NCBI GenBank assembly: GCA_045562675.1
Contig: JBJKVL010000010.1
Span: 22,284 to 86,283 of the forward strand
DNA: 64,000 nucleotides
Reading direction: 5' to 3'
Source: Dehalococcoidia bacterium
Lineage (GTDB): Bacteria; Chloroflexota; Dehalococcoidia; UBA2979
Shown: positions 2,492-56,828 of the stretch, piece after piece
Layout: every line of letters starts with the position of its first letter
Numbering within the stretch: the first letter of the stretch is position 1
The notes under the pieces: model-generated
Told to the model about the DNA's origin: nothing
Seen by the model: the letters and a program-made list of their open reading frames with translations, nothing else
Database searches by the model: none
Made by a program: the position numbers and the translations under genes

Positions 2492-4336
2492 ATGAATCAC
2501 AAACTGTCACGTCAAGTTGATCTAATGCCTGAGTCTTTTGGTGTATATATGATGAAAGATGCGAGTAAAGATATTATTTATGTTGGCAAGGCTAAAAATA
2601 TTCGTAAAAGAGTAAAATCATATTTTCGTAATTCGACTCAAAATGAAAATCATAAAATTCAGTTGTTAGTTAAGGAAATAGAAGATATTGATTATTTAGT
2701 CACTGAAAATGAATCCGAAGCACTCATCCTTGAAGCAAATTTAATTCGAGAAAAAAAACCAACTTATAATATCAGACTGAAAGATGATAAAAGTTTTCCA
2801 TATCTTAAAATTGATCTCCATAATGATTGGCCACGAGTTTCAATTACGCGTAATTTACAAAACGATGGCAGTAGATATTTTGGACCATATACTTCTCCGG
2901 GATCTGCACGTAAAAATCTTGAAACAATAAATAAAATTTTTCCATGGAGATCGTGTACAAAAAAGATTACAGGTAAAGATGAGCGTCCGTGCTTAGATTA
3001 TTTTATTAAAAGATGCATTGCTCCTTGCACATCATATTGTACAAAAAAAGAATACGATGAAGTGATTCAGCAGACTATGCTTTTTCTTGAGGGTAAAACT
3101 GATCATGTCACAAAACAATTAAATCAAGAAATGAACAATGCTTCAAAAAACTTTGATTATGAGAAAGCTGCCCGCATCAGAGATCAAATTCATTCAATAA
3201 AAAAATTAGAAAAGTATTCATCCACCGTTTCCTCAACAACAGACTTGAATGCAGATGTCATTGGATTTATAAACGACAAAGGCTCTACAATTTATAATGT
3301 ACTCCATTTTCGTGGTAAGCGATTAATTAGTAATGATAGCAATCAATTAAATAATGATTTAGCGCAAGATGATCAAGAAGTATTAAGTCATTTTTTATTA
3401 CAATATTATACAAAGAAAAATTTACCTCCTCAGTACGTTTTAACAAATATTATACCTAAGCAAAAAACATTAATTGAGCAACAACTTTCACAATTTGCAA
3501 ACAAAAAAATTTCAATCATCAAACCATCACGTGGATTCAAAAAAAGATTAGTACAGCTTGCTATAGAAAATGCCAATGAGTATTTATTAAAGAAAATTTC
3601 TAGCAACATATCTGTAAATAATAATCTTGAGCAAGGATTACAAATTATTACTGATGAATTAGAACTTATCGAAAAACCAAGTCGAATTGAATGTTATGAC
3701 ATTTCTCATATTCAAGGAACAGACATTGTTGGCTCCATGGTGGTATTTGAAAATGGTAAGCCAAATACGAAGAAATACCGGAGATTCAAATTAAAGTCTA
3801 TGAATTCGCAAGATGATTATTTAGCAATAAAAGAGATTTTTACAAGACGATTAAAACGAATGCAAGAAAAAAATACTGACGATAAAAATGATTGGCATTC
3901 TAAACCAAACTTAGTGGTAATAGATGGAGGTCGAGGACAGCTCAATGCTGCGCTTGAAGTACTATTACAAACAGGCATAAAAGACATTACAGTATGCGGG
4001 CTTGCAAAGAAAAATGAAGAGATTTATGTTGCAGACCTGAATGAACCAATTAGATTACAGGCTGGTACACCAGGAATTACGCTCCTGCAAAGAATTCGTG
4101 ATGAGGCGCATCGATTTGCTATTTCATACCATCGAAATTTGCGCAGTAAAAGACAAATAAAATCTATACTCGATGATATCGATGGCATTGGTCATTTGAA
4201 AAAAAAATTGCTAATTGATAAATTTGGCTCAATAGATAAAATCAAAAAGGCGAATAAGAAAGAGCTTGCTGCAATAAATGGCATCGGAGAAATACTAGCA
4301 TCTAAGATAAAACGATCATTAAATCCACTAAAATGA
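2492..4336 (+). CDS. uvrC: excinuclease ABC subunit C
   Basis: 614 aa. N-terminal GIY-YIG (GVYMMKD...IIYVGKAKNIRKRVKSYF), UVR-domain segment (YEKAARIRDQI) and C-terminal HhH (IDGIGHLKKKLL...INGIGEILA). TGA stop. Confidence 0.95.
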   Translation: MNHKLSRQVDLMPESFGVYMMKDASKDIIYVGKAKNIRKRVKSYFRNSTQNENHKIQLLVKEIEDIDYLVTENESEALILEANLIREKKPTYNIRLKDDKSFPYLKIDLHNDWPRVSITRNLQNDGSRYFGPYTSPGSARKNLETINKIFPWRSCTKKITGKDERPCLDYFIKRCIAPCTSYCTKKEYDEVIQQTMLFLEGKTDHVTKQLNQEMNNASKNFDYEKAARIRDQIHSIKKLEKYSSTVSSTTDLNADVIGFINDKGSTIYNVLHFRGKRLISNDSNQLNNDLAQDDQEVLSHFLLQYYTKKNLPPQYVLTNIIPKQKTLIEQQLSQFANKKISIIKPSRGFKKRLVQLAIENANEYLLKKISSNISVNNNLEQGLQIITDELELIEKPSRIECYDISHIQGTDIVGSMVVFENGKPNTKKYRRFKLKSMNSQDDYLAIKEIFTRRLKRMQEKNTDDKNDWHSKPNLVVIDGGRGQLNAALEVLLQTGIKDITVCGLAKKNEEIYVADLNEPIRLQAGTPGITLLQRIRDEAHRFAISYHRNLRSKRQIKSILDDIDGIGHLKKKLLIDKFGSIDKIKKANKKELAAINGIGEILASKIKRSLNPLK

Positions 4337-7717: not shown

Positions 7718-8122
7718 ATGTTTGATAAATTCAAAAAAAAAGCAATCGAAAAAGCTGCAATGAAAATGATCAAAGAAGATTTCACTCTAGATGATTTTTT
7801 AAACCAGTTAAATAAACTCGGGAAAATTGGTAATTTATCAAAAGTAATGCCTGGCCTTGGAGGAACAGCGAGCAAAATGGCAATGAGTCAGATTAACGAT
7901 AAATTTATTGATAAGTGTAAATTAATTATTGAAGCAATGAATGAAGATGAAAGACGAGATCCAAAATCTATATCAAGCGAGAGAAAAAAGAGTATAGCCA
8001 CAGAAGCAAATGTCAATGTAGAAGAAGTCGATGGACTAATTAAACAATTTGAACAAGCTAAAAGAATGATGTCAATGTTGCGTAATCAAAGTACAAAAAT
8101 AAATAATAAACGAAAATTTTAA
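7718..8122 (+). CDS. stand-alone SRP54/Ffh M-domain-like protein (no NG GTPase domain)
   Basis: 134 aa, collinear with the Ffh M domain. FTLDDFLNQLNKLGKIGNLSKVMPGLGG corresponds to the FDLNDFLEQLRQMKNMGG...LPGMG type. IIEAMNEDERRDPKSISSERKKSIATEANVNVEEVDGLIKQFEQAKRMM corresponds to the AIINSMTxKER..P.II.GSRKRRIAAGSG..V..VN.LLKQF..M..MM type. It begins 7 nt after the gap stop, so there is no room for an NG domain. Confidence 0.7.
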   Translation: MFDKFKKKAIEKAAMKMIKEDFTLDDFLNQLNKLGKIGNLSKVMPGLGGTASKMAMSQINDKFIDKCKLIIEAMNEDERRDPKSISSERKKSIATEANVNVEEVDGLIKQFEQAKRMMSMLRNQSTKINNKRKF

Positions 8123-8191: not shown

Positions 8192-8920
8192 TTGTTAAAA
8201 ATAAGATTAAGAAGAGTTGGAAGAAGCAAACAGCCTTTGTACAGAGTTGTAATTGCAGAACATACCGCACCAAGAGATGGTAGGTTTGTAGAGATAGTTG
8301 GACAATACGATCCTGCATCAAAAGATAAGAATCTCAATTTAAATGAAGAAAGAATAAAATATTGGATATCTGTAGGTGCACAGCCTACTGAGACTGTTCA
8401 TAGAATTCTATTTAAACAAGGATTGTATGATATTGATCCTCCAAAAAGAATTACAGTTGAAAAAAAACCTGAGGCTGAAGCTGAGGCAGCACCTGAGGCT
8501 GAAGCTGAGGCAGCACCTGAGGCAGCACCTGAGGCAGCACCTGAGACTGAAACTGAGGCAGCACCTGAGACTGAAACTGAGGCAGCACCTGAGGCTGAAG
8601 CTGAGGCAGCACCTGAGGCAGCACCTGAGGCAGCACCTGAGACTGAAACTGAGGCAGCACCTGAGGCTGAAGCTGAGGCAGCACCTGAGGCAGCACCTGA
8701 GACTGAAACTGAGGCAGCACCTGAGGCTGAAGCTGAGGCAGCACCTGAGGCAGAACCTGAGACTGAAACTGAGGCAGCACCTGAGGCTGAAACTGAGGCT
8801 GAAACTGAGGCAGCACCTGAGGCTGAAGCTGAGGCAGCACCTGAGGCTGAAGCTGAGGCAGCACCTGAGGCTGAAGCTGAGGCAGCACCTGAGACTGAAG
8901 CTGAGACTGAGGAGAAATAA
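8192..8920 (+). CDS. rpsP: 30S ribosomal protein S16 with long acidic repetitive C-terminal extension
   Basis: TTG start 6 nt after GGAG. N-terminal ~85 aa is canonical S16 (MLKIRLRRVGRSKQPLYRVVIAEHTAPRDGRFVEIVGQYDP...YWISVGAQPTETV). It is followed by ~150 aa of PEAEAEAA / PETETEAA / PEAA units. Confidence 0.9.
   Translation: MLKIRLRRVGRSKQPLYRVVIAEHTAPRDGRFVEIVGQYDPASKDKNLNLNEERIKYWISVGAQPTETVHRILFKQGLYDIDPPKRITVEKKPEAEAEAAPEAEAEAAPEAAPEAAPETETEAAPETETEAAPEAEAEAAPEAAPEAAPETETEAAPEAEAEAAPEAAPETETEAAPEAEAEAAPEAEPETETEAAPEAETEAETEAAPEAEAEAAPEAEAEAAPEAEAEAAPETEAETEEK
8468..8914. repeat. coding tandem repeat array (12- and 24-bp units) in the rpsP 3' part
   Basis: Units are cctgaggctgaagctgaggcagca, cctgagactgaaactgaggcagca and cctgaggcagca. 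They are iterated about 20 times with essentially invariant codon choice. Confidence 0.9.
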
Positions 8921-9701: not shown

Positions 9702-10232
9702 ATGGAATTAGATATTAATAATCTCTTTGTAACTGATACTCAAAACAAAAGCCAATCGCTTGCTTCTATAATGTCTAAAAATATAGTTCTAATATGTATG
9801 CTTCGTCATTTTGGCTGAATTTTTTGTAAAGAACAAGCAGCTCAGTTGAGCTCTATAAAAAATGAAATAAACCAAATAGATATTGAACTAATCTTTATTG
9901 GCAGTGGTTCACCTGAACAAGCAAGATTCTTTCAAGAAGACTATAAGATAGATGCAAAAGTTTTCAGTGATCAGGAATTAATAATTTACAAAGCTCTAGG
10001 TGCAAAAAATAGCTTAATATCAAATATTACACCTGGAGTTTGGATCGCAGGCCTTAGAGCATTTTTAAATGGATTCATGCAATCAAAAACACAAGGTACC
10101 TATACGCAACAAGGTGGTGTTGCCTTGCTTACAAAAAATGGTGAAGTAGCATATTTATATCTTAGTAAATATGCAGGCGACCATATAGAACCTAGGATTC
10201 TGTTACAAAAAATAAAAAAAATAATGAGTTAA
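9702..10232 (+). CDS. peroxiredoxin-like (AhpC/TSA_2, PRXL2/SelU-type) thioredoxin-fold protein with in-frame TGA at 9816-9818 (candidate selenocysteine, UxxC)
   Basis: ATG 9702, TGA 9816 and track ORF start 9846 share one frame (offsets 114 and 30). Read-through gives MELDINNLFVTDTQNKSQSLASIMSKNIVLICMLRHFG-U-IFCKEQAAQLSSIK...TQQGGVALLTKNGEVAYLYLSKYAGDH. The RHFG(C/U)xFC motif and the later QxGG...D block are family hallmarks. Confidence 0.6.
9839..9852 (+). other. hairpin downstream of the in-frame UGA (candidate bacterial SECIS apical stem-loop)
   Basis: AGCUC-AGUU-GAGCU is a 5-bp perfect stem with a tetraloop containing G, starting 21 nt after the UGA. Flanking UUUUUGUA (9821-9828) and UAUAAAAA (9854-9861) could form a lower stem. 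Confidence 0.35.
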
Positions 10233-10316: not shown

Positions 10317-11339
10317 ATGTTAGAAATAATACCAGTACTCATCATATTAATTGTTGGAATATTTTTATTAACTTTTTTTACCGTTAGCCAACAAACAGTA
10401 GTAATCATTGAACGGTTTGGTAAATATAATAGAATGTGTAATCCAGGATTACATTTTAAAATTCCTCTCATCGAAAGAAAGTCAGGCACCTTAAATATGC
10501 GAATTAGACAACTTGATGTGCCTGTTGAAACAAAAACTGAAGATAACGTCTTTGTATCTGTAAGTATTTCTGTGCAATATTTTGTTTTGGAATCTAAAGA
10601 ATATGAAGCATTTTATAAACTTCAAAATGCTGAATCTCAAATCACTTCATACGTATTCGATGTGGTTCGAGCTCGTGTACCAAAAATGATCTTAGATCGT
10701 CTTTTTGATAAGAAAGATGAAATCGCTGATGCAGTTGGAGCAGAATTAACAGATATTATGGAACAGTTTGGATATGGTATTGTCAAAGCATTAGTGACAG
10801 ATATTGACCCTGATGCAAAAGTCAAAGCTGCAATGAACGAGATTAATGAAGCAGAGAGGCTTCGAGTAGCAGCAACTGAACGAGGTGAAGCAGAAAAAAT
10901 CTTAATTGTTAAAGAAGCAGAAGGAAAAGCACAAAGTAATGCATTGCGTGGTAGAGGAATTGCTGACGAACGACAAGCTATTATTGAAGGACTCAAAGAA
11001 TCTATAGATGATTTCCAAAAAAGCATTGCAGGAACAGGACCGATGGAAGTAATGAATTTAGTGCTTCTAACACAATATTTCGACAGCTTGAAAGAAATTG
11101 GTACTTCAGAAAATAGTAACAGTATTTTTATGCCTCATACTCCAAATGCATTATCTGACATGACTGCACAAATGCGTGATGCTCTTGTGCAAGCAAGCCC
11201 AGTTACAAATCAGCCTCAATCAGCTATGACTGCCCAAGAGGTAGAGCCAAAAAATAATGACATAAAGGAAACTGTAGAAGAAAAGATTGAAAAGTCAGAT
11301 GATAAACCGGCTGGTTATTTTAATCCAGAAAATGCGTGA
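10317..11339 (+). CDS. SPFH/band-7 (stomatin/prohibitin-like) membrane protein
   Basis: 340 aa with an N-terminal TM helix. Core reads VVIIERFGKYNRMCNPGLHFKIPLIE...DNVFVSVSISVQY, followed by a coiled Ala/Glu-rich region (AERLRVAATERGEAEKILIVKEAEGKA). TGA stop. Confidence 0.85.
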   Translation: MLEIIPVLIILIVGIFLLTFFTVSQQTVVIIERFGKYNRMCNPGLHFKIPLIERKSGTLNMRIRQLDVPVETKTEDNVFVSVSISVQYFVLESKEYEAFYKLQNAESQITSYVFDVVRARVPKMILDRLFDKKDEIADAVGAELTDIMEQFGYGIVKALVTDIDPDAKVKAAMNEINEAERLRVAATERGEAEKILIVKEAEGKAQSNALRGRGIADERQAIIEGLKESIDDFQKSIAGTGPMEVMNLVLLTQYFDSLKEIGTSENSNSIFMPHTPNALSDMTAQMRDALVQASPVTNQPQSAMTAQEVEPKNNDIKETVEEKIEKSDDKPAGYFNPENA

Positions 11340-22291: not shown

Positions 22292-22517
22292 GCAAGAAAA
22301 TAAAATTGCCTAACCTGTTAAGACAAAAAAACAATTGCTAAAGTGAATTAGCCCTTAAATACTTTACCATAACTAGTTGCATATTCAAAAAGTCAATATA
22401 TATTAGATATTACCCTCTAAAAACTGAATAAATGATTATTCTATAAAAAATAATTAAAAAAGATAATCTTTTACTCATCAAACAACTAAAAAGGGTAATT
22501 CGAGGTTGGAGAAAAAT

Positions 22518-25500
22518 ATGAAAATTAAAAGACATTTTACAAATCAAAACAATGATCCATATAGCAGTATAAAATTTGATAAAAGGCAATCAAAAATTGT
22601 TAATCCAGATGGCTCAGTCGTTTTTGAAGCAAATGATGTGATGGTTCCTGAAGATTGGTCGCAAGTAGCAACAGATATTGTTGCCCAAAAATATTTTCGT
22701 AAAGCTGGCGTTCCTACTAAAAAAACTAAAGTGAAAGAAAGTGGTGTGCCCTCCTGGCTACAAAAATCTAAACCATCAAAAAATACAAAAATGGTTGGTG
22801 AAACTGACTCAAGGCAAACCTTTGATCGTTTAGCAGGAACATGGACATATTGGGGATGGAAAAATAATTATTTTAATTCTGAAAATGATGCAAAGGCATT
22901 TTATGATGAAATGCGTTATATGCTTGCAAAACAAATTGCAGCTCCAAACTCACCTCAATGGTTTAACACTGGTCTCCATTGGGCATACGGTATTGCTGGA
23001 CCTGCACAAGGACATCATTACGTAGATCAAGATTCAAAAAAATTATCTAAGTCAACAAGCGCATATGAACGACCACAACCGCATGCCTGCTTCATACAAT
23101 CTGTGAAAGATGATCTTGTAAATGAAGGCGGCATAATGAATTTGTGGACAAGAGAAGCACGAATCTTTAAATATGGTTCAGGGACAGGATCTAACTTTTC
23201 TAATCTACGTGGTGCAGATGAACCATTGTCAGGTGGTGGTAAGTCATCAGGCTTAATGTCATTCTTACAAATAGGTGATCGTGCAGCTGGCGCAGTAAAA
23301 TCAGGAGGCACAACAAGACGTGCAGCAAAAATGGTCATTGTCAATGACGACCACCCTGATGTTGAGCAATTTATTGAATGGAAGGTTAGAGAAGAACAGA
23401 AAGTCGCTGCATTAGTCGCTGGTTCAGCAGCACTGAAAAGACATACTGCAAGAATTTATGATGCAATTAATGCATCTGTAGAAAAAAATGAATTAAACAC
23501 ACTAATTAAAAGAGCAAGAAGAGATAGTGTGCCTGAAATATTAATACAGCGTGCAATTAATCTTGCTGAATCAGGGAAAGTATTAGATATTCAAGAATTT
23601 GATACAGACTGGCAAGGCGAAGCATATCAAACTGTTTCTGGACAAAATTCAAATAATTCAGTCAGAGTAACAGAGGAATTCTTATCAGCCGTACGTAATA
23701 ACAAGGAATGGGACTTAACTAGACGCATAGATGGCAGTGTGCATAAAACAATTCAAGCAAAAGACTTGTGGGAGAAGATTGCTATTGCTTCATGGCAAAG
23801 CGCAGATCCAGGTCTACAATTTGATACTACAATCAACGAATGGCACACTTCACCTCAGGGGGGTCGTATTAATGGATCGAACCCATGCTCAGAATATATG
23901 TTTTTAGATGATACTGCATGCAATCTTGCTTCAATTAATTTAATGAAATTTTTTGTAGAGTCGAATAACTCATTTGACATTGAAGGATACGAACATGCAA
24001 TCAGGCTTTGGACTGTTGTCTTAGAAATATCTGTTTTAATGGCACAATTCCCAAGTAAAGATATTGCACAATTATCATATGACTATCGAACTTTAGGGCT
24101 TGGTTATGCAAATCTCGGTGCATTATTAATGCGCTTTGGTATACCATATGATTCTGAAGAGGCATTCAGTTGGACTGCATGCCTAACGGCATTAATGACA
24201 GGAAAGTCATATGAAGTGTCAGCGGAAATGGCAAAAGAACTTGGAGCATTCCCTGCTTATGAAGAAAATAAGGAAGATATGCTACGTGTTATCCGGAACC
24301 ACAATAGAGCAGTCAACTCTGCAAAAAATGCAGAATATGAAGGATTGTCAGTATTTCCTATGCAAGTTGATTATACTCTGATGCCAAATGAGTTACATGT
24401 TGCTGCAAAAAATGCTTTTCAAAATGCCCTATCAATTGGAGAGCAATATGGTTATCGTAACGCTCAAACAACACTCATTGCTCCGACAGGAACAATAGGC
24501 TTGGTTATGGATTGTGATACAACTGGCGTAGAGCCTGATTTTGCACTTGTAAAATTTAAAAAATTAGCTGGCGGTGGATACTTTAGAATTATCAATGAGT
24601 CCATTCCTGACGCGCTCCAAAACTTGGGTTACACACTAGAGCAAACTAAAGATATAACAGATTACTGTGCAGGCATTGGTTCATTAACTAATGCTACGGC
24701 TATTAATGCAGACACCTTAATAGAAAAAGGGTTTAATAATGAAACTATTGATAAAATCAATGATTCTTTAAAAACAGCATTTCATATTTCTTTTGCATTT
24801 AATCAATATGTAATAGGTAAAGAATTTTGTATAAGCGAGCTAGGATTTTCAGAGGATCAGTTAAATAATCCACTTTTTAATATGCTTAATGAATTAGGTT
24901 TTTCAAATAAGGAAATTGAATTTGCAAATGATGCTATTTTAGGCAGAATGACAATTGAAGGGGCACCTCATCTTTTGGAAGAACACTATAATGTTTTTGA
25001 CTGTGCAAATAAGTGTGGCCAATATGGTACAAGATATATTGCCCCAATGGCACACATAAAAATAATGGGTGCTGCACAACCATTCCTATCAGGAGCAATT
25101 AGTAAAACAATCAATATGCCAAGTGATGCTACTATTGAGAATGTTGAAGAAGTACATATGGAAGCTGCAAATCATATGATTAAAGCGGTTGCTCTATATC
25201 GAGATGGTTCAAAATTATCACAGCCACTTTCCGCTGCACTAATTGATGATTTTGATGAAGATGAGACTGAAGATATAGTGAGTGAAGCGGTTAACGGTAG
25301 CCAAGCTGAAAAAATTGTTGCTACTGCTGCGCATATGGCTCATGAAGCAACTAATAGTCAGCTTTCTGAACGTGGTAGTAGAGAAAAATTACCATCAAGA
25401 AGACAAGGCTATGCTCAAAAAGCCCGCGTTGGTGGACATTCGATATATATACATACTGGTGAATTTGAACAACGAGATGAAAATGGCAACCCAAGGCTAG

Positions 25501-26093
25501 GTGAAATATTTGTTGATATGGCTAAAGATGGCGCAGCATTTAGATCGCTAATGAACTGCTTTGCAATTGCAGTATCAATTGGTTTACAGCATGGAGTGCC
25601 ACTAGATGCGTATGTTGATTCATTCGTGTTTACAAAATTTGAGCCAAATGGTATTGTGAGCGGTCATGATAGAATACAAATGGCGACATCAATTATTGAC
25701 TACCTTTTCAGAGAATTGGGTGTATCATACTTAGGCAGAGATGACCTTGCGCATGTGAGTAGTATAGATGATGCAACCGAAACTGCAGATATAGAAGCTG
25801 AAAATCAGCAACTAAAAGCAGGCATTCCTGCTGAAAATGTTACAGTTCAAAAAGAGCCGCCTGTTACTGCTGAAGAACAAACACCACAAATTATTAATAT
25901 TTCAGATATTAGTACAAATAACACTCAAACAACTAGCACTGCAACTGCAACAATTACAAAAGATGACGTTGCAATTGCAAAGTCTAGAGGATTTGAAGGT
26001 GATCCGTGTGATGAATGCGGTCAAATGATGATGGTAAGAAATGGTACTTGTTTAAAATGTGTTGCGTGCGGCACAACGACCGGATGTAGTTAA
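22518..26093 (+). CDS. nrdJ: class II (adenosylcobalamin-dependent) ribonucleotide reductase
   Basis: ATG 22518 lies 8 nt after GGAG (track TTG is at 22506). Active-site block SNPCSEYMFLDDTACNLASINL. C-terminal Cys finger CDECGQMMMVRNGTCLKCVACG. About 1190 aa. Confidence 0.9.
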   Translation: MKIKRHFTNQNNDPYSSIKFDKRQSKIVNPDGSVVFEANDVMVPEDWSQVATDIVAQKYFRKAGVPTKKTKVKESGVPSWLQKSKPSKNTKMVGETDSRQTFDRLAGTWTYWGWKNNYFNSENDAKAFYDEMRYMLAKQIAAPNSPQWFNTGLHWAYGIAGPAQGHHYVDQDSKKLSKSTSAYERPQPHACFIQSVKDDLVNEGGIMNLWTREARIFKYGSGTGSNFSNLRGADEPLSGGGKSSGLMSFLQIGDRAAGAVKSGGTTRRAAKMVIVNDDHPDVEQFIEWKVREEQKVAALVAGSAALKRHTARIYDAINASVEKNELNTLIKRARRDSVPEILIQRAINLAESGKVLDIQEFDTDWQGEAYQTVSGQNSNNSVRVTEEFLSAVRNNKEWDLTRRIDGSVHKTIQAKDLWEKIAIASWQSADPGLQFDTTINEWHTSPQGGRINGSNPCSEYMFLDDTACNLASINLMKFFVESNNSFDIEGYEHAIRLWTVVLEISVLMAQFPSKDIAQLSYDYRTLGLGYANLGALLMRFGIPYDSEEAFSWTACLTALMTGKSYEVSAEMAKELGAFPAYEENKEDMLRVIRNHNRAVNSAKNAEYEGLSVFPMQVDYTLMPNELHVAAKNAFQNALSIGEQYGYRNAQTTLIAPTGTIGLVMDCDTTGVEPDFALVKFKKLAGGGYFRIINESIPDALQNLGYTLEQTKDITDYCAGIGSLTNATAINADTLIEKGFNNETIDKINDSLKTAFHISFAFNQYVIGKEFCISELGFSEDQLNNPLFNMLNELGFSNKEIEFANDAILGRMTIEGAPHLLEEHYNVFDCANKCGQYGTRYIAPMAHIKIMGAAQPFLSGAISKTINMPSDATIENVEEVHMEAANHMIKAVALYRDGSKLSQPLSAALIDDFDEDETEDIVSEAVNGSQAEKIVATAAHMAHEATNSQLSERGSREKLPSRRQGYAQKARVGGHSIYIHTGEFEQRDENGNPRLGEIFVDMAKDGAAFRSLMNCFAIAVSIGLQHGVPLDAYVDSFVFTKFEPNGIVSGHDRIQMATSIIDYLFRELGVSYLGRDDLAHVSSIDDATETADIEAENQQLKAGIPAENVTVQKEPPVTAEEQTPQIINISDISTNNTQTTSTATATITKDDVAIAKSRGFEGDPCDECGQMMMVRNGTCLKCVACGTTTGCS

Positions 26094-36623: not shown

Positions 36624-37853
36624 CTATTCTAAATCAGGTTCTGCTCGTTTATCCCAAACAATATTTTTTTCGATTAACTCATTAATCGCTTCTTGGCTTA
36701 AACCTAACAGTGATTCAAGAACTTCATTAGTATGCTGACCCATGTCTGGTGCTGTTCCTTGAATTTTTGCAGGTGTTCGAGATAGTTTAATTGGGCTATT
36801 TACTAATCTGACATTGCCTAATGTCTTGTGATCAACTTCTACAAACATCTCTCGTGCGTTTGCCTGATCGGATTCACTGACTTCCTTAATTGAATTTACC
36901 GGACCACATGGTATATGCATTGGTAACAACATTTCTATCCATTCGTCTGTTGTTTTTATTTTGAATGCTTCATTCAGTATTGGCTCCAGTTCAGCATGAT
37001 TATCTGTTCTTTTTTCGGCAGTTGCAAATCGATCATCCAAAATCATAGAATCTAGTCCAAGGACTGAACATAGTAAATTCCATTGTTCTGGAACACCCCA
37101 AGATAACGCAACAACTATCCAGCCATTTGAAGTTGGGAATGCTTGAAATGGGACTGCGGTAGGATGACGAGTGCCGAGTTTTTTTGGCTCTTCATTTGTT
37201 AAATGCCAACGCATAAAAGCATTCTCTTGAATTGCAATTTGACAATCCATCATAGAAATATCAATATATTGACCTTTGCCAGATCGATTTCTTTCAATAA
37301 CTGCAGAAAGCACTCCGATTACACAATATATCCCCCCTCCTATATCTCCTAACGAAGTTCCGGGCCTAATTGGCGGACCTCCATCTACACCGGTAACAGA
37401 GAGTATCCCGCCTGAGCCTTGGGCAATAACATCCAAAGCTGGGCGATCTTTCCATGGCCCCGTTTGTCCATATCCTGAAATAGCAGCATATATTATTTTT
37501 TCATTTACAGCACTAATCTCTTGATAAGATAAGCCTATTTTATCCATCACACCTGGAGTAAAATTTTCTACAATGACATCAAATTCTTTCACTAAATCAA
37601 GAAAAATTTGTTTGCCTTCTGTAGTTTTTAAATCTATTGATATAGATTTTTTACCCCTATTAACAGAAAAGAAATAACCTGATTCTCCGTCAATGATTGG
37701 TCGAGTAGTTCTGCCGAGATCGCCATAAGGTGGGCGCTCAACTTTCACAACAGTTGCGCCTAGATCAGATAGTGTCATAGTTGCAAATGGTCCAGACAAA
37801 ATCCAACTTAAGTCTAAAACCTTAATACCATCTAATGGTCCTTTAGTCGCCAT
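36624..37853 (-). CDS. family III CoA-transferase (CaiB/BaiF type)
   Basis: 409 aa. PLDGIKVLDLSWILSGPFATMTLSDLGATVVKVERP N-terminus and GTSLGDIGGG mid-region. Confidence 0.85.
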   Translation of the reverse strand: MATKGPLDGIKVLDLSWILSGPFATMTLSDLGATVVKVERPPYGDLGRTTRPIIDGESGYFFSVNRGKKSISIDLKTTEGKQIFLDLVKEFDVIVENFTPGVMDKIGLSYQEISAVNEKIIYAAISGYGQTGPWKDRPALDVIAQGSGGILSVTGVDGGPPIRPGTSLGDIGGGIYCVIGVLSAVIERNRSGKGQYIDISMMDCQIAIQENAFMRWHLTNEEPKKLGTRHPTAVPFQAFPTSNGWIVVALSWGVPEQWNLLCSVLGLDSMILDDRFATAEKRTDNHAELEPILNEAFKIKTTDEWIEMLLPMHIPCGPVNSIKEVSESDQANAREMFVEVDHKTLGNVRLVNSPIKLSRTPAKIQGTAPDMGQHTNEVLESLLGLSQEAINELIEKNIVWDKRAEPDLE

Positions 37854-37862
37854 AAATACCTC

Positions 37863-38468
37863 TCATTGAATAACGCCACTTTGTTTCAGCAATACAACTT
37901 GATTCCGTACCCTTTCCGGGCTTATAGGACCAGTCCATTTGTAATACACCTTATCATTATAAATCAAAAAAGTAACTGGAATGCCTCTTACATTATATTT
38001 TGAAGATAAAGCATTATCTTGATCTAAAACAATTTCAAAAGTTGAACTTACTGCTTTAACAAATTTTTCTACATCATTTATTTCTTCGGCTACATTAACT
38101 CCAACTATGACTAAATCATCCTCTTTCCACAACAATTCTAGTTCATCAAATTCAGCTCTACAAGGCCCGCACCAGGTAGCCCAAAAATTTAACAAATATG
38201 GCTTGTTTACTAAATCTTTAGATGCTAATAATTTTTTTTGATCATTGAATAAAGTCCCCGAACTTAGTCTAGATAAGTTAAATTGATGAAATTCAATGCC
38301 AATATCATCAGATAAATATCCTTGAGATTTTAAATTCTCTATATCATTAGAAGTATTTTCTTCACTTAAAAAAACCATTACCCCGAAAAGAATCGTTAAA
38401 ATTAGGCATATCACGATTAATATTTTTATAAAAAAATTTGATTTAATATAAGAAAATATTTTGTTCAT
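37863..38468 (-). CDS. membrane-anchored TlpA/ResA-like thiol-disulfide oxidoreductase
   Basis: MNKIFSYIKSNFFIKILIVICLILTILFGV TM anchor and FWATWCGPCRAEF (WCGPC). ATG 38468 is preferred because the track's 38684 start would overlap the divergent neighbour. Confidence 0.8.
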   Translation of the reverse strand: MNKIFSYIKSNFFIKILIVICLILTILFGVMVFLSEENTSNDIENLKSQGYLSDDIGIEFHQFNLSRLSSGTLFNDQKKLLASKDLVNKPYLLNFWATWCGPCRAEFDELELLWKEDDLVIVGVNVAEEINDVEKFVKAVSSTFEIVLDQDNALSSKYNVRGIPVTFLIYNDKVYYKWTGPISPERVRNQVVLLKQSGVIQ

Positions 38469-38554
38469 TTTTTCAGTTCTTACTATGCTCTGGTCTATAC
38501 TACTAAACATGTTTACAATATGTATTCTAATAATAAAATGATTTCGGATAAAAA

Positions 38555-39481
38555 ATGAATGGACTATTTGCAGGAACAAATCATGGCCTTTACTTTGTTG
38601 AACCAGAGAAAGAACCAATTTGCGAGATTGAATTAGAATCAATTGAATATATAGATAGCAATGAAAGTGGTTTAGCAGCTGCAATTGTTAAAAATAAAGG
38701 CCTATTTGTTCGCTCAGATGTCGGAAAATGGATACTGAAATGGCCAGGGGATATAATTTCATTAAAAATTACTCAAAATAATGAAATTATTGCTGGTGTG
38801 CTGCCAACAAAACTAATCATTTCTAAAGATAACGGAAATTCTTGGCAGGAATCTAAGGGAATCCAAAGCTATATTGGGAGTAGTTCTATAGAGACTTTTA
38901 CATCTAAAAAAAACACTCAAAAAATTCAATCGATCAAAGAAATAGGTGGCAGTATACTGATTTCTATTGATCAAGTAGGAATTTTAGTTTCACATAATCT
39001 CGGGAGCAGTTGGGTCAGAAGCTCAGATGGCATTGATGAAAATGTTAACCTCATCTTAAATCTAAATAAAGAGAACGAAATAATTTATGCAATGAGTAAA
39101 AATGACATTTATAAAACTGAAGATTTTGCTTTAAGCTGGAGAAAGCTGATTCATAAAAGCAATCAATATAATATAATTGATGCTATTGTTTTTAACAATA
39201 ATACTGATGGTATATTGTTCCTTGGAATAACAAATCAAAATAATCATCCAAGAAATCAGCTAATGACTTTAACAGAATCAAATGCTTTAGATTATGATTT
39301 AAATATTAAGTCTGAAAAAGAATATGATAGTCAAATTTGTATTATCAAACTACCTAATAGTGAAGACACTGCTTTTCTTGGATATGATAAAAAGATTTGG
39401 GCATCACATAATCAAGGAAAAGACTGGTTGCAGATTAAGGAATTACAATACAATATACTATCTATGGCAGTTTGTTTTTAA
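38555..39481 (+). CDS. BNR/Asp-box repeat beta-propeller-like protein
   Basis: 308 aa with repeated Asp-box-like motifs: SKDNGNSWQES, SHNLGSSWVRS, TEDFALSWRKL, SHNQGKDWLQI. Confidence 0.6.
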   Translation: MNGLFAGTNHGLYFVEPEKEPICEIELESIEYIDSNESGLAAAIVKNKGLFVRSDVGKWILKWPGDIISLKITQNNEIIAGVLPTKLIISKDNGNSWQESKGIQSYIGSSSIETFTSKKNTQKIQSIKEIGGSILISIDQVGILVSHNLGSSWVRSSDGIDENVNLILNLNKENEIIYAMSKNDIYKTEDFALSWRKLIHKSNQYNIIDAIVFNNNTDGILFLGITNQNNHPRNQLMTLTESNALDYDLNIKSEKEYDSQICIIKLPNSEDTAFLGYDKKIWASHNQGKDWLQIKELQYNILSMAVCF

Positions 39482-41762: not shown

Positions 41763-42710
41763 ATGACTAAAGAAGATAATTTAACACAAGAACAATTGGA
41801 TGAGATTACTGAGCTTAGAGAGAAAAAAAGTTCTACCTTACGAGCTGTTTCTCCAGAAGTTGAAAAAGTTTTATACACTCCTTTTAACGTTTTAGATCAT
41901 GGCTTTGTGAGAGTCATTGATTATATGGGAGATGATGCAGCAATTGTTCAGGCTGCACGAGTGTCTTATGGAAAAGGAACAAAGAAAGTTTCTGAAGATT
42001 CAGGTTTAATCAAATATCTTATGCGACATTCTCATTCAACACCTTTTGAAATGTGTGAGATCAAATTACATGTCAAGCTACCAATTTTTATAGCAAGGCA
42101 ATGGGTCAGGCATCGTACAGCAAATATAAATGAATATTCTGCAAGATATTCAATACTAGATAATGAATTTTATGTACCAGATATTAAGAATCTAGGCGCA
42201 CAGTCACAAAGTAACAGGCAAGGGCGTGATGAAGTATTAACTGGAGATGAAGCTGATGAAGTTTTAGAGATATTAAAAAATGACGCATTAAATCTATACG
42301 GCAACTATGAAAAAATGATGAATGTAGATAGTCAAGGAGATCAAATAGATCCTGAACGTCAAGGACTTGCTAGAGAGCTTGCAAGAATGAATCTGTCACT
42401 GAATTATTACACACAATGGTATTGGAAAATTGACTTACATAACCTGCTTCATTTTTTACGACTGCGCGCAGATTCACATGCTCAATTAGAGATTAGAGAA
42501 TATGCGGATGTAATATTAAATGTTGTTGAGAAATGGGTGCCTGAAACATATAAAGCTTTTGTTGAATACCAAATGAATGGTGTTAAGCTATCAGCAACTG
42601 CATGGTCCGCAGTAAAAAACATGATAAACGGTGAATTACCTAGTCATAAAGAGTTAAATATGTCAAAAAGAGAGTGGGATGAGTTAAAGGATATGATAAG
42701 TGGAGAATAA
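41763..42710 (+). CDS. thyX: FAD-dependent thymidylate synthase
   Basis: 315 aa. ThyX motif [17 protein letters not shown], plus HSTPFEM. Confidence 0.9.
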
Positions 42711-43995
42711 TGCACCATTAAATGATATCAATGTATTAGATGCCTCAGGTGCAATTGGGCATTATGCAGGTAAACTGCTGGCTGATCTAGGAGCAAATGT
42801 AATTAAAATTGAACCTATTCAAGGAGATTCCACAAGAAATTTTGCTCCATATTTGCCAAATGTTGAAAGTCCAGAAAACAGCCTGCAATTCATACTGTTA
42901 AATACAAACAAGCAAAGCATAGCAATAGATATAGAATCCGAAGAAGGCTTGAAGATATTTTATAAATTAATCGAAAATTCAGACATACTGATAGAATCTT
43001 GGTCTAATGAAGAGAAAAGAAAAATTGACATCACTCACAAAAAATTAATTGAAATAAATCCAGAATTAATTCATACATCTATAACAGGTTGGGGTACATA
43101 TGGCGATAAAGCAGACTGGGCATATGCAGACATAACAGGCGTGGCTATGTCAGGCGTTATGAATTTAGCTGGATTTTTAGATGGACCTCCGGAAAATCTT
43201 CCAGATCAGCAAGGATATCATTGTGCTTCAATGCATGGTGCAGCTGGTGCATTAACTGCACTATACAGTAAAGAGTTCAACAGTACAGGTGGACAACTTG
43301 TTGAAGTTTCAATGCAAGAGTCACTGTCAATCGCACAAGAAATTGCAATGCAAAATTGGGATATCAGAGAATTTATACCGCAAAGGACTGGCGAAAGCAG
43401 TCAAGTAAACCCGATGAATCTCCCTGGATTTGGTCTATATGAATGTAAAGAAGGCATGGTTTATATGATGACCACTGGAACTGCTGGAGCAGGTTTTGCA
43501 GGGTTAGTTGAAATGATGGATGAGCATGATATGGCAGGCGATCTTAAAGAAGAACCTAACTGGACATTTATGCAAACTCAAATGAATGGTGCGAACTTAA
43601 GAAATTTATTAACCGATGAAGAGACAAAAGATAAAACAAGAGAATTTTTGGATCATATTGAAAGCTTAGTAACAAGTTTCATGAAGTCTTACTCTTCAAA
43701 ATACATCTATGAATATGGTCAATCAAATCGAGTACTAGTCGGAATAATTAGTACCCCAGAAGATATTTCAAATGATGAGCATTTAAAACAACGTAGCTGG
43801 TTCCAAGAAATCAACGACACAAAACGTAATGTATCATTACGATATCCTGGATTCCCTTATCAATTGAGCAATAACCCTCCTTCATTAAGGATCCCTGCGC
43901 CATTATTAGGTGAACATACTGACACAATATTATCTCAATTAAACTATACAGATGACAAAATTACTGAACTAAGAAAAAAGGAAATAATAAAATGA
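42700..43995 (+). CDS. family III CoA-transferase (CaiB/BaiF type)
   Basis: 431 aa. [34 protein letters not shown]. The start overlaps the thyX stop by 11 nt. Confidence 0.8.
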
Positions 43996-45218: not shown

Positions 45219-45231
45219 TTGATGGTGTCAT

Positions 45232-45537
45232 ATGGAAGATAAAATTCTTGAAGAATGCGCAAATTGGATTGCTGAACAGGCAAGTGATCAATTAGGAGGA
45301 TTTATTCCTGCTGAGCTCCTAGATCTTATGTTTGAACTAGAGACTAAGATTCGAGAAGAAAATAATGATCCAACTATGAGTCATAAAGAAATGTCAAATT
45401 TTTTGCTTGAAGAATTACGAAAAGAAGAAGTTCCAATTGAAAAAACAGGTCTCAATGAAAATATTCTTGAAGAGTTGTTACATTGGGAAGATGAATGTCT
45501 AAGTCTATCAGGTCATCCTAGAGAAATTCGTAATTAA
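45232..45537 (+). CDS. hypothetical acidic protein
   Basis: 101-aa track ORF, last gene of the co-directional array. No motif recognised. Confidence 0.4.
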   Translation: MEDKILEECANWIAEQASDQLGGFIPAELLDLMFELETKIREENNDPTMSHKEMSNFLLEELRKEEVPIEKTGLNENILEELLHWEDECLSLSGHPREIRN

Positions 45538-56173: not shown

Positions 56174-56828
56174 ATGACCACTCTAAGGCTTTTCCCGTTA
56201 TCAACAGTTTTATTTCCAAAGATGACTCTTCCATTGCAAATCTTTGAGGAACGATATATGCAGTTGATTCAATGAATGTATTGATAATAATGAGCATTTT
56301 GGAGTTGTATCGATAAAATCTGGAAATGAAGTAGGCGAAGTACTACCAGAAATATATAGAATTGGTACAACTGCAAAAATAAATAAAACTCTTTTTGATA
56401 GAACAGGAATGATTTTAGTAGAGACAATTGGCATTCAGAGATTTGAAATATTAGATATCATTTCTGAAGAACCTTATCTTACCGCAAATATTAAATTATT
56501 GGATGAGGTAAATTCTTTTGATGAAAGTATTTTTTTAGACATTTCCAAAGCATATAAAGAGTTTGTGCAATTTAGCGAAATTGCTAGTGGCAGTTTTGCT
56601 ATTGATAAAACGATACCTACGCAACCTGGAGAGCTAGCTGATAGTATTGCAGTTAAAGCCATTACGTTTTGGGACAAAAAAAAATTACAAAAAATTCTCG
56701 AGGAGTTAGATTCAATGAATCGACTAAATGCAGTGAAACCAATAATGAAAACTATACTTTCCTATGCAGAAAAAGAAGCTAAGGAAAAAATTAGAAAACT
56801 AAAATCAGAGTCTTCGAATCTAAATTAA
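56174..56828 (+). pseudogene. LON N-terminal (substrate-binding) domain protein interrupted by a 1-nt frameshift at 56273
   Basis: Frame A, ATG 56174 to TGA 56273-56275, gives MTTLRLFPLSTVLFPKMTLPLQIFEERYMQLIQ*. The +1 frame from 56274 gives ECIDNNEHFGVVSIKSGNEVGEVLPEIYRIGTTAKI... and continues without stops into track ORF 56409..56828. Joined, it is a typical ~217-aa LON-domain protein. Confidence 0.7.

What the first reader, a model, noticed from the sequence alone, without database searches (positions are those of the whole stretch)
9702..10232. In-frame TGA at the redox-cysteine position of a peroxiredoxin-like protein: candidate UxxC selenoprotein
The track reports only a 128-aa ORF from TTG 9846. 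That frame stays open upstream to an ATG at 9702, apart from a single TGA at 9816-9818 (9816-9702=114 and 9846-9816=30, both multiples of 3). Read-through gives ...NIVLICMLRHFG-[TGA]-IFCKEQAAQL.... AhpC/TSA_2 (PRXL2/SelU-type) thioredoxin-fold proteins carry the first Cys of the RHFGCxxC redox motif at exactly this position, and the eukaryotic SelU branch of the fold includes known selenoproteins. TGA is a real stop for conserved genes here (uvrC 4334-4336, SPFH gene 11337-11339), so global TGA reassignment is unlikely. A 5-bp hairpin AGCUC-AGUU-GAGCU (9839-9852) places a G-containing apical loop about 25 nt after the UGA. U5 and A5 tracts on either side could extend the stem. This spacing is compatible with published descriptions of bacterial SECIS elements. 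No selA, selB, selD or tRNA-Sec lies in this window.
Basis: partly seen in the sequence, partly recalled or inferred. Interest (0 to 1): 0.75.

Follow-up and report, generated by a model that had tools for sequence, protein, structure and literature searches.

The report
Mis-annotated selenoprotein gene, marine Chloroflexota
The in-frame TGA is almost certainly a selenocysteine codon in the active site of a small thioredoxin-fold redox enzyme that gene callers cut short; it is a solid example of a known kind of gene rather than a new mechanism.

Summary
Observation confirmed; interpretation supported. ATG 9702 to TAA 10232 is one 176-codon frame with a single TGA at 9816-9818. That TGA replaces the first Cys of the RHFG-C-x-x-C redox motif of an AhpC/TSA_2 (PRXL2-like) thioredoxin-fold protein. 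The same codon is TGA in every orthologue recovered: nine distinct low-GC marine DNA versions, MAGs of Chloroflexota, Dormiibacterota and Acidobacteriota, and 80 of 101 metagenome matches. Other homologues carry TGC or TGT there. The 38 codons upstream are under purifying selection (dN/dS 0.04-0.34), so this is neither a pseudogene nor an assembly error. TGA is an ordinary stop elsewhere in the window. A 5-bp hairpin with a C-AGUU-G top (9839-9852), 25 nt after the UGA, meets the published bacterial SECIS consensus. It shows compensatory changes, and is kept in 64 of 71 TGA-type genes but only 3 of 18 Cys-type genes. NCBIfam calls the family "SelL-related redox protein"; the window's protein scores 108 bits against a cutoff of 120. 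The organism is a low-GC marine Chloroflexota (Dehalococcoidia-like). Verdict: a genuine but unsurprising selenoprotein gene, mis-called in public databases.

The parts
9702..10232 (+). Full selenoprotein coding sequence: 176 codons (M1...U39...C42...S176) plus TAA stop. SelL-related / AhpC-TSA_2 (PRXL2-like) thioredoxin-fold redox protein.
   Evidence: Orthologues have the same length and frame with no indels. AF2 model of the 97%-identical P0001 has pLDDT 92.6.
9702..9815 (+). N-terminal 38 codons that gene callers omit (beta-strands 1-3 and the RHFG loop leading to the active site).
   Evidence: dN/dS is 0.04-0.34 while synonymous sites are near saturation, the same range as the downstream part. 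The ATG start is conserved in all orthologues.
9816..9818 (+). In-frame TGA, the proposed selenocysteine codon (U39). It sits at the position of the first, nucleophilic Cys of the CxxC motif.
   Evidence: TGA in all close orthologues and in MAGs of three phyla; TGC/TGT in other homologues. It aligns with Cys44 of PGFS 9us9. It lies at the N-cap of helix 40-50 in the model.
9825..9827 (+). TGT codon for Cys42, the resolving partner of the UxxC motif.
   Evidence: Invariant column C42 in alignments A1, A4 and A5.
9839..9852 (+). Bacterial SECIS-type hairpin: 5-bp stem AGCUC/GAGCU with apical loop AGUU (9844-9847), 25 nt downstream of the UGA. The spurious TTG 'start' at 9846 lies inside the loop.
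   Evidence: It fits all four published bSECIS criteria. Two of five pairs change on both sides, 0 of 500 shuffles reach the covariation score, and slid registers score far lower. It is kept in 64 of 71 TGA-type but only 3 of 18 Cys-type genes.
9819..9863 (+). Possible lower stem (U-run 9819-9827 with A-run about 9853-9863) enclosing the hairpin. Uncertain.
   Evidence: It pairs in the single-sequence MFE, but it is not in a conserved register in other lineages and is not in the RNAalifold consensus.
10317..11339 (+). Context only: SPFH/Band_7 (stomatin-like) gene immediately downstream. It is a recurrent neighbour of this family in two distant clades.
   Evidence: Pfam PF01145, E 1e-31. It lies downstream in low-GC marine clades and directly upstream in 11 loci of the RHYG-type soil clade.

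Best explanation
Positions 9702-10232 encode one 176-residue selenoprotein. During translation the UGA at 9816-9818 is not read as stop. Instead, the hairpin 25 nt downstream (9839-9852, loop AGUU) acts as a bacterial SECIS element that recruits SelB carrying Sec-tRNA(Sec), and selenocysteine is inserted at position 39. The product is a thioredoxin-fold, PRXL2/SelL-related redox enzyme. Its active site is U39-I-F-C42 at the N-terminus of helix 1. The selenolate attacks an oxidised substrate (a peroxide, endoperoxide or disulfide), Cys42 resolves the intermediate into a selenenylsulfide, and a thioredoxin-type reductant regenerates the enzyme. Shown here: the continuous reading frame, Sec/Cys homology at the exact column, conservation of the TGA and of its upstream coding region, the conserved and covarying hairpin that tracks TGA and not Cys, and the fold. 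Inferred: actual Sec insertion (the machinery was not seen), the catalytic cycle (by analogy with CxxC/UxxC thioredoxin-fold enzymes) and the substrate.
For: 1. Frame and motif.
2. Family: Pfam PF13911 at 55 bits against a cutoff of 27. NCBIfam NF040769 'SelL-related redox protein' at 108 bits, matching positions 8-172 of 173.
3. Cys in the TGA column of 10 distant homologues. The 'W' printed in close full-length database entries is a code-4 reading of TGA.
4. TGA at the same codon in 9 distinct marine DNA versions and in Chloroflexota, Dormiibacterota and Acidobacteriota MAGs, and in 80 of 101 metagenome matches to a pattern that accepted both TGA and TGY.
5. dN/dS upstream of the TGA is 0.04-0.34, with no indels or extra stops.
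6. TGA is a normal stop for 13 of 59 long frames.
7. Hairpin: pair 36-49 occurs as AU/UA/CG/UG and pair 39-46 as UA/GC/UG/GU. No shuffle of 500 reaches the covariation score, and 81% of cells are paired against 20-56% in slid registers.
8. The hairpin meets the bSECIS consensus of PMC13188914.
9. TGA-type genes keep C-AGUU-G in 63 of 71 cases, including 60-70% GC genomes where TTG is an unfavoured Leu codon. Cys-type genes keep it in 0 of 18. L036 encodes the same KEQAAQLR peptide with TGC and CAG-CTG.
10. A TGA subgroup lacking this hairpin has another G-loop hairpin, AAGGAGC-AGGUCA-GCUCCUU.
11. The AF2 model (pLDDT 92.6) puts residue 39 at the helix N-cap. The best structural and sequence match is human PGFS/PRXL2B, with the CxxC aligned.
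12. Sec decoding is documented in Chloroflexota/Dehalococcoidia MAGs, with up to 49 selenoprotein genes in one (PMC13326102).
13. Internal control: the window's one real lesion, a 1-nt insertion in the Lon-N gene, is absent from near-identical contigs, unlike the TGA.
Against: No selA, selB, selD or tRNA-Sec was found in the 64-kb window, in about 13 kb beyond its right end, or in any of the 135 held contigs. The organism's ability to decode Sec is therefore inferred, not shown. No second selenoprotein gene is visible in the window. The hairpin is short and not thermodynamically exceptional on its own (z = -1.7); some orthologues fold at only -7.3 to -7.4 kcal/mol, just short of the -7.5 consensus threshold. 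TGA-type sequences are related to one another, so part of the TGA-hairpin association could be shared ancestry. The window's protein scores below the NCBIfam trusted cutoff. There is no protein-level evidence.
Confidence: 0.9

Rival explanations
1. Nonsense-mutated pseudogene or sequencing/assembly error: the TGA is a lesion in a formerly Cys-coding gene, and nothing functional is made from the upstream part.
For: Public gene callers report only the 118-137-aa downstream ORF. No Sec machinery is seen in the window.
Against: The TGA is at the identical codon in more than 25 independent assemblies, in lineages down to 46-58% identity and in other phyla. The upstream 38 codons are under purifying selection, with no indels or further stops despite saturated synonymous sites. 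The downstream ORF alone would lack the active site and three strands of the fold. A genuine lesion in this window (the Lon-N frameshift) is not shared by relatives.
Confidence: 0.02
2. UGA is recoded here, but to cysteine or another standard amino acid rather than selenocysteine. This could happen through a SelB/SECIS-dependent tRNA charged with Cys, as reported for some bacteria, or through stop-codon read-through by a near-cognate tRNA.
For: The comparative signals (conserved TGA, conserved hairpin, Cys homologues) cannot tell Sec from Cys insertion by a SECIS-dependent route. No selA or selD was found to show that Sec can be made. The existence of tRNA-Sec-like tRNA-Cys systems rests on my own knowledge of the literature and was not checked here.
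Against: Keeping a TGA plus a recoding hairpin merely to insert Cys has no obvious benefit, since many homologues simply use TGC. Sec at the nucleophilic position of UxxC redox motifs is the common pattern for bacterial selenoproteins (PMC13188914). Sec use is documented in Dehalococcoidia.
Confidence: 0.05
3. Lineage-wide reassignment of TGA to a sense codon (code 4 or 25), as the 'W' in database translations would suggest.
For: Several ENA and Logan gene calls translate the codon as W (P0001, P0004-6).
Against: TGA terminates 13 of 59 long frames in the window, including uvrC and the SPFH gene. Long genes of up to 1515 codons are free of internal TGA. Homologues have Cys, not Trp or Gly, in this column. 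The W calls come from short low-GC contigs, where callers switch tables.
Confidence: 0.01
4. Two separate products: a 38-aa upstream peptide ending at the TGA, and an independently initiated downstream protein (TTG 9846 or a later start). On this view the conserved palindrome would serve another role, such as a transcription terminator or regulator.
For: TTG 9846 is invariant. The consensus scan flags the palindrome as terminator-like on the minus strand.
Against: TTG is invariant because it forms the hairpin loop, and Cys-type genes change it to CTG. No minus-strand gene ends here, and GC-rich orthologues lack the T-run. A thioredoxin fold cannot be assembled without strands 1-3 and the UxxC loop. 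Exact alignment of the TGA with the catalytic Cys would be a coincidence under this model.
Confidence: 0.02

Closest known systems
NCBIfam NF040769 'SelL-related redox protein' (bacterial)
   Same: End-to-end match (profile positions 8-172 of 173, E 3e-31). TGA-type relatives from GC-rich lineages reach the trusted cutoff (L092 130.7 and L038 122.5 bits). They share the RH[FY]G-U/C-x-F-C-K motif.
   Different: The window's low-GC marine clade scores 103-111 bits, below the 120-bit cutoff, so it is a divergent branch. I could not read the model's curator text, and no paper in the library mentions NF040769.
PRXL2 / SelU family (Pfam PF13911 AhpC/TSA_2), in particular human prostamide/prostaglandin F synthase PRXL2B (PDB 9us9/9usa)
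   Same: Best sequence match in the PDB (E 3e-11) with RRFG-C-VV-C-R aligned to RHFG-U-IF-C-K. Best structural match (TM 0.78/0.83, rmsd 2.5 A). Thioredoxin fold with the CxxC at the helix N-terminus. The eukaryotic SelU members include Sec forms (PMC2397514).
   Different: Only about 20% identity. This gene is bacterial, with a coding-region bSECIS rather than a 3'-UTR SECIS. The substrate (PGH2 for PGFS) cannot be assumed.
Eukaryotic/marine selenoprotein L (SelL)
   Same: Prx-like thioredoxin-fold selenoprotein of aquatic organisms, reported also from marine bacteria (PMC2397514; PMC2398784 calls it 'a Prx-like protein'). NCBI names the bacterial family after it.
   Different: SelL has two Sec residues in a UxxU motif forming a diselenide (PMC2397514, PMC3473315). 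This protein has one Sec and an invariant Cys (UxxC), so the bond would be a selenenylsulfide. No SelL sequence was available for direct comparison.
Prx-like UxxC selenoproteins of marine metagenomes (Sargasso/GOS 'Prx-like 1-3') and 'Prx-like thiol:disulfide oxidoreductase' of Deltaproteobacteria
   Same: Same class: thioredoxin-fold, Prx-related, UxxC, abundant in ocean metagenomes, with many Cys homologues (PMC2398784, PMC1794560, PMC13188914 Table 1).
   Different: The RHFGU/HFGU motif is absent from the held part of GOS Dataset S1, and GOS Prx-like 1 members shown there carry a different motif, GHWUPYC. This is probably a distinct family within the class, but the file was truncated.
Canonical E. 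coli fdhF-type bSECIS
   Same: A hairpin just downstream of the UGA in the coding region, with a small apical loop holding G followed by U. It fits the consensus of PMC13188914 (loop 3-9 nt, stem 4-16 bp, spacing 16-37 nt).
   Different: Much shorter (5 bp), no evident bulged U, and a family-specific invariant C-AGUU-G. A minority subgroup of the family uses a different hairpin with an AGGUCA loop.

Membership tests
Bacterial selenoprotein gene (Sec-UGA recoding) | In-frame UGA aligned with a conserved Cys in homologues (Sec/Cys pair) | tested here: met
   Cys in this column in P0010-P0019 and in 21 of 101 metagenome matches; TGA in the rest. It aligns with the first Cys of the CxxC of PGFS.
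Bacterial selenoprotein gene (Sec-UGA recoding) | UGA and both coding flanks conserved in orthologues from other organisms | tested here: met
   Nine distinct marine versions plus MAGs of three phyla. dN/dS upstream is 0.04-0.34.
Bacterial selenoprotein gene (Sec-UGA recoding) | [quoted passage not shown] | tested here: met
   Loop AGUU, 5-bp stem, 25 nt spacing, -9.5 kcal/mol. Covariation at 2 of 5 pairs. The hairpin tracks TGA and not Cys. Caveat: two orthologue versions fold at -7.3 and -7.4 kcal/mol.
Bacterial selenoprotein gene (Sec-UGA recoding) | Genome encodes selA, selB, selD and tRNA-Sec | not testable with these tools
   Absent from the window, from about 13 kb of right flank and from 677 kb of held contigs. 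Sec use in Dehalococcoidia MAGs is reported in PMC13326102.
Bacterial selenoprotein gene (Sec-UGA recoding) | Selenium actually incorporated at the UGA position (75Se labelling or mass spectrometry) | not testable with these tools
   Needs experiment or metaproteome data.
NCBIfam NF040769 SelL-related redox protein | Whole-protein HMM score at or above the curated cutoff (120 bits) | tested here: not met
   108.4 bits with Cys substituted for Sec, although the match is end-to-end. Sister marine clades score 103-111. GC-rich TGA-type relatives score 119-131. This is a divergent branch of the same superfamily, not a trusted-cutoff member.
Pfam PF13911 AhpC/TSA_2 (PRXL2/SelU-type) | HMM score above the gathering threshold (27 bits) | tested here: met
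   55.2 bits, E 1.1e-14, profile positions 1-110 of 114.
Pfam PF13911 AhpC/TSA_2 (PRXL2/SelU-type) | Thioredoxin fold with a C/U-x-x-C motif at the N-terminus of the first helix | tested here: met
   AF2 pLDDT 92.6; strand 28-34, helix 40-50. Foldseek top hit is PGFS.
Selenoprotein L (SelL) proper | Two Sec residues in a UxxU motif (diselenide) | tested here: not met
   Position 42 is TGT (Cys) here and is invariant Cys in all relatives. The UxxU requirement comes from PMC2397514 and PMC3473315.
Typical peroxiredoxin (PF00578; BCP/PrxQ-like) | PxxxT/SxxC peroxidatic-Cys motif | tested here: not met
   PF00578 is matched (36.6 bits against a cutoff of 26). However, the residues before U39 read C-M-L-R-H-F-G, with no Pro at -7 and no Thr/Ser at -3 (direct reading). 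The motif definition is from general knowledge of peroxiredoxins.

The most novel reading that the evidence does not exclude
The RH[FY]G-U-x-F-C-K family may be a predominantly Sec-containing selenoprotein family of several bacterial phyla (marine and Caspian Chloroflexota, soil Dormiibacterota and Acidobacteriota) with its own near-invariant C-AGUU-G SECIS. It is modelled in NCBIfam but absent from the published catalogues I could check: the 2026 review table lacks NF040769, the motif is missing from the held part of the GOS dataset, and no paper mentions it. It may work together with an adjacent SPFH/stomatin membrane scaffold, for example as a membrane-proximal lipid-hydroperoxide or endoperoxide reductase analogous to PGFS. 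Its retention in a streamlined, aerobic surface-ocean Chloroflexota would then be a case of Sec being kept under oxic conditions, where selenoproteins are said to be rare.
Probability: 0.2. Interest if true: 0.55.

Novelty: new member of a known kind. Interest (0 to 1): 0.35.

Why it matters
The practical value is annotation. Every public gene call I saw for this gene is wrong, either truncated to 118-137 aa without the active site or translated with Trp at the catalytic position. The same will hold for hundreds of relatives in soil, freshwater and marine assemblies. Correcting it adds a selenoenzyme to a streamlined, oxic surface-ocean Chloroflexota lineage, and so implies a selenium requirement and Sec machinery there. 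The family also gives an unusually clean natural experiment on SECIS evolution: TGA-type genes hold an invariant C-AGUU-G hairpin even in 65-70% GC genomes, and Cys-type genes encoding the same peptide lose it. Otherwise it follows the textbook pattern for bacterial selenoproteins and opens no new question.

Tried and rejected
1. Organism and machinery through genome contigs. It returned Cys- and Sec-type relatives from other phyla but not this lineage, so no genome could be searched for sel genes.
2. Second selenoprotein gene in the window as indirect proof of Sec decoding. I scanned all TAA/TAG-open frames containing TGA. The candidates were adjacent separate genes (a TlpA-like thioredoxin followed by a CoA-transferase), a frame mistake of my own (45046-45537), or a 1-nt frameshift (the Lon-N gene).
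3. Sec machinery near the gene:
   - Pfam on 20 window ORFs found nothing.
   - ARAGORN and Rfam on the window found nothing.
   - ARAGORN on all 135 held sequences found nothing.
   - tblastn with E. coli SelA, SelB and SelD against everything held hit only the BipA GTPase domain.
   - The extension beyond the right end of the window found nothing.
   - The left-end protein is not on record.
5. The U-run/A-run lower stem is not conserved in register, so I did not count it as part of the element.
6. The original SelL paper (PMC1955791) is not held. The comparison with SelL rests on secondary descriptions.
7. A search of GOS Dataset S1 for the motif found nothing, but the file was truncated on storage, so this is inconclusive.
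8. I chose not to spend a further whole-database protein search on E. coli SelD, SelA or SelB. Hits carry no taxonomy and could not be tied to this organism.
Full report
**Observation.** An ATG at 9702 opens a frame that runs to TAA 10230-10232 and is interrupted only by TGA at 9816-9818. The mechanical ORF list reports just the 128-aa piece from TTG 9846. Read-through gives a 176-residue product containing ...CMLRHFG-[TGA]-IFCKEQAAQL... A palindrome, AGCUC-AGUU-GAGCU, occupies 9839-9852, with its loop starting 25 nt after the UGA. TGA is a normal stop in this window. It closes 13 of 59 long frames, including uvrC and the SPFH gene, and genes of up to 1515 codons contain no internal TGA.

**What the protein is.** With Cys substituted for the TGA, the product matches three profiles:
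- Pfam AhpC/TSA_2 (PF13911): 55 bits against a cutoff of 27.
- Pfam AhpC-TSA (PF00578): 36.6 bits.
- NCBIfam NF040769 'SelL-related redox protein': an end-to-end match (profile 8-172 of 173, E 3e-31) at 108 bits, below the curated cutoff of 120.

The closest solved structure by sequence is human prostamide/prostaglandin F synthase (PRXL2B, 9us9; E 3e-11). Its RRFG-C-VV-C-R aligns residue for residue with RHFG-[TGA]-IF-C-K. An AlphaFold model of P0001 (97% identical, full length) is confident (pLDDT 92.6, pTM 0.89). It shows strand 28-34 leading through the RHFG loop into helix 40-50, so residue 39 sits at the helix N-cap, the classic position of the nucleophilic Cys or Sec in thioredoxin-fold enzymes. 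Foldseek ranks PGFS first (TM 0.78/0.83, rmsd 2.5 A), followed by BCP/PrxQ peroxiredoxins and ResA-type oxidoreductases.

**Is the TGA a lesion or a codon?** A database search found three kinds of relatives:
- Distant full-length homologues with Cys in the TGA column (RHFGCIFC; P0010-P0019).
- Close full-length entries with 'W' there.
- Close entries truncated to 118-137 aa.

The DNA of the last two kinds shows TGA at the identical codon in all of them. The 'W' is a code-4 gene call, and the truncated entries are calls that start downstream of the TGA. There are nine distinct marine DNA versions from more than 25 independent assemblies (Tara Oceans, JGI, Logan). They share 57-97% amino-acid identity, the same 176-codon length, and the same synteny (rpsP-KH-rimM-[gene]-Band_7-DUF4395).

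Nei-Gojobori estimates give dN/dS of 0.04-0.34 for the 38 codons upstream of the TGA, against 0.10-0.31 downstream, with synonymous sites at or near saturation. The upstream segment is therefore translated in frame with the rest. TGA also occupies this codon in MAGs of Chloroflexota (Caspian Sea), Dormiibacterota and Acidobacteriota, while other Dormiibacterota and Polyangiaceae genomes have TGC. The window supplies its own negative control. The Lon-N-like gene at 56174-56828 is broken by a 1-nt insertion that near-identical contigs lack. That is how a real lesion or assembly error looks in this dataset, and the TGA at 9816 behaves in the opposite way.

**The recoding signal.** An ungapped alignment of 13 TGA-type sequences keeps the 5-bp stem and the C-AGUU-G top. 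RNAalifold predicts the hairpin. Two of its five pairs change on both sides: pair 36-49 occurs as AU, UA, CG and UG, and pair 39-46 as UA, GC, UG and GU. None of 500 column shuffles reaches the observed covariation score or fraction paired. Sliding the 3' arm by 1-3 columns drops pairing from 81% to 20-56%. The compensating change at pair 39-46 alters the encoded residue (Ser, Gly, Arg or Cys) while the partner is a synonymous Ala third position, which points to selection on the RNA.

The element satisfies each criterion of the published bacterial SECIS consensus (PMC13188914, read):

| Criterion | Required | This hairpin |
|---|---|---|
| Apical loop | 3-9 nt | 4 nt (AGUU) |
| G in first two loop positions | yes, usually followed by G or U | G at position 2, followed by U |
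| Upper stem | 4-16 bp | 5 bp |
| UGA-to-loop spacing | 16-37 nt | 25 nt |
| MFE | -7.5 kcal/mol or lower | -9.5 kcal/mol |

Taken alone the fold is not exceptional (z = -1.7), so the comparative evidence carries the argument.

**A direct test of the SECIS reading.** I scanned metagenome contigs with a degenerate pattern for H-[FY]-G-TGN-x-F-C-K-[EQ]-Q. It accepts both TGA and TGY and leaves the hairpin region free. Of 101 matching stretches, 80 carry TGA, 18 TGC and 3 TGT. Among the 89 distinct versions:

| Class | n | ≥4 of 5 stem pairs in fixed register | CAGTTG |
|---|---|---|---|
| TGA-type | 71 | 64 | 63 |
| Cys-type | 18 | 3 | 0 |

Most TGA-type genes come from 63-73% GC genomes, where TTG is an unfavoured Leu codon, yet they keep it. 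L036 has the same KEQAAQLR peptide as its TGA-type relatives but TGC in the Sec column, and its Leu codon is CTG. Five TGA-type sequences that lack this hairpin (KEQV[SR]SFLP) have another one, AAGGAGC-AGGUCA-GCUCCUU, also with a G-containing loop at consensus spacing. Shared ancestry inflates these counts to some degree, but the pattern is what a SECIS predicts and what a protein-only constraint does not.

**Family placement.** TGA-type relatives reach the NF040769 cutoff (L092 130.7, L038 122.5, L043 119.4 bits), while the low-GC marine clades score 103-111. The window's gene is therefore a divergent branch of a family that NCBI already models. SelL proper has two Sec residues in UxxU, forming a diselenide (PMC2397514, PMC3473315). 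This family has an invariant Cys at the second position, so it is SelL-related but not SelL. It also lacks the PxxxT/SxxC motif of typical peroxiredoxins (direct reading). Prx-like UxxC selenoproteins have been a recognised class in marine metagenomes since 2005-2008 (PMC2398784) and in Deltaproteobacteria (PMC1794560). The review table of 2026 lists several such families but not NF040769. No paper in the library mentions it. The HFGU motif is absent from the held, truncated part of the GOS sequence dataset.

**Organism and machinery.** GC content is 29-37%. Cluster-mates at 90% identity or more for several window proteins are annotated 'Chloroflexi bacterium' (MAX10987-MAX11009, one MAG) and 'Dehalococcoidaceae bacterium'. 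Samples are surface and DCM ocean metagenomes. I found no selA, selB, selD or tRNA-Sec in any of the following:
- the window;
- about 13 kb beyond its right end;
- the 677 kb of contigs fetched, using ARAGORN and tblastn with E. coli SelA, SelB and SelD.

Indirectly, Chloroflexota were already counted among Sec users in 2006 (PMC1794560). BSepDB lists Dehalococcoidia MAGs with 46-49 selenoprotein genes among the richest bacteria (PMC13326102).

**Mechanism proposed.** *Shown:* one continuous reading frame, a Sec/Cys pair at the catalytic position, a conserved recoding hairpin, and a thioredoxin fold. *Inferred:* SelB carrying Sec-tRNA(Sec) binds the hairpin as the ribosome reaches the UGA and inserts Sec39. 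The selenolate attacks an oxidised substrate, Cys42 resolves the intermediate to a selenenylsulfide, and a thioredoxin-type system reduces it. The substrate is unknown. The nearest characterised relative reduces an endoperoxide (PGFS).

An SPFH/stomatin gene lies next to this gene in two distant clades with opposite gene order. It is downstream in the low-GC marine Chloroflexota and directly upstream in 11 loci of the RHYG-type soil clade. One lineage fuses the domain to a short-chain dehydrogenase (L053). These observations hint at a membrane-associated redox role, but the evidence is weak.

**Rivals.**
- *Pseudogene or error:* excluded by conservation and purifying selection.
- *Global TGA reassignment:* excluded by stop-codon usage.
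- *Two separate products, or a minus-strand terminator:* does not explain why the TGA sits exactly on the catalytic Cys, nor why Cys-type genes lose the hairpin.
- *SECIS-dependent insertion of Cys instead of Sec:* cannot be excluded without the genome or a peptide, but is unlikely.

**Verdict.** This is a genuine, mis-annotated selenoprotein gene of a known class in a marine Chloroflexota. It is useful for annotation and as a clean SECIS example, but it is not surprising to a specialist.

Noticed in passing
window 56174-56828 (+), insertion near 56267: The LON substrate-binding-domain gene (217 aa in near-identical contigs L135-L137) is broken in the window by a single extra T (GTTGATTCAATG against ATTGA-TCAATG). 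The window's ORF therefore starts only at 56409. This is either a frameshift mutation or an assembly error, not recoding.
   Followed up: yes
window 8192-8920 (+); tandem repeat 8467-8893: The ribosomal protein S16 gene is 242 codons instead of the 110-120 seen in relatives (L019, L020). It carries a tail of about 150 residues of (PEAEAEAA)n, encoded by a 24-nt tandem repeat of about 18 copies. The tail length evidently varies between close relatives.
   Followed up: partly
window 7718-8122 (+): A stand-alone 134-aa gene consists only of the SRP54/Ffh M domain (PF02978, E 2e-21). It sits directly after GAPDH and before rpsP, and is conserved in L008, L019 and L020. No NG (GTPase) domain is attached. 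Whether a full ffh exists elsewhere in the genome is unknown.
   Followed up: partly
L039, L046, L066, L074, L102 (metagenome loci), about 12-31 nt after the TGA: A subgroup of TGA-type family members (peptide KEQV[SR]SFLP) lacks the C-AGUU-G hairpin. It has a different 7-bp hairpin, AAGGAGC-AGGUCA-GCUCCUU, closer to the UGA. The family therefore uses at least two SECIS versions.
   Followed up: partly
window 10317-11339; L014, L038, L055, L063, L070, L083, L088, L113, L124, L134 (about 1.1-1.8 kb upstream of the TGA): An SPFH/Band_7 (stomatin-like) gene is adjacent to the SelL-related gene in two distant clades with opposite order. It is downstream in low-GC marine Chloroflexota and upstream, together with an ABC1/UbiB-type kinase, in the RHYG-type soil clade. 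It is not adjacent in the other clades.
   Followed up: partly
L053 (JAAUYE010101095.1), 506-aa ORF: In one GC-rich lineage the TGA-type SelL-related domain is fused at its C-terminus to a short-chain dehydrogenase/reductase-like domain (TGANTGLG motif).
   Followed up: no
public protein entries P0001-P0009, P0022-P0036 (for example MAX11009.1): Every database version of this gene is mis-called. It is either truncated to 118-137 aa starting after the TGA, or full-length with Trp at the Sec position because the caller used genetic code 4 on short low-GC contigs.
   Followed up: yes
window 37863-38684 (-) and 36624-37853 (-): A TlpA/ResA-like membrane thioredoxin (WCGPC motif) ends in TGA, and a CoA-transferase family III gene starts three codons later in the same frame. 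It looks like a TGA-joined frame but is two separate genes. The window holds three CoA-transferase III paralogues (also 42700-43995 and 43992-45218).
   Followed up: yes
window 53580-56156 (+): An 858-aa 2Fe-2S/4Fe-4S/molybdopterin oxidoreductase (FdsA- or NuoG-like, formate-dehydrogenase-type architecture) has no in-frame TGA. If it is a formate dehydrogenase, it is not the Sec form. The residue at the Sec/Cys position was not examined.
   Followed up: no
window 22292-22505, upstream of the class II (B12-dependent) ribonucleotide reductase 22506-26093: A 214-nt gap precedes a B12-dependent RNR, but no Rfam family, cobalamin riboswitch included, reached its gathering score in the window-wide scan. 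I did not rescan the gap at a lower threshold.
   Followed up: no
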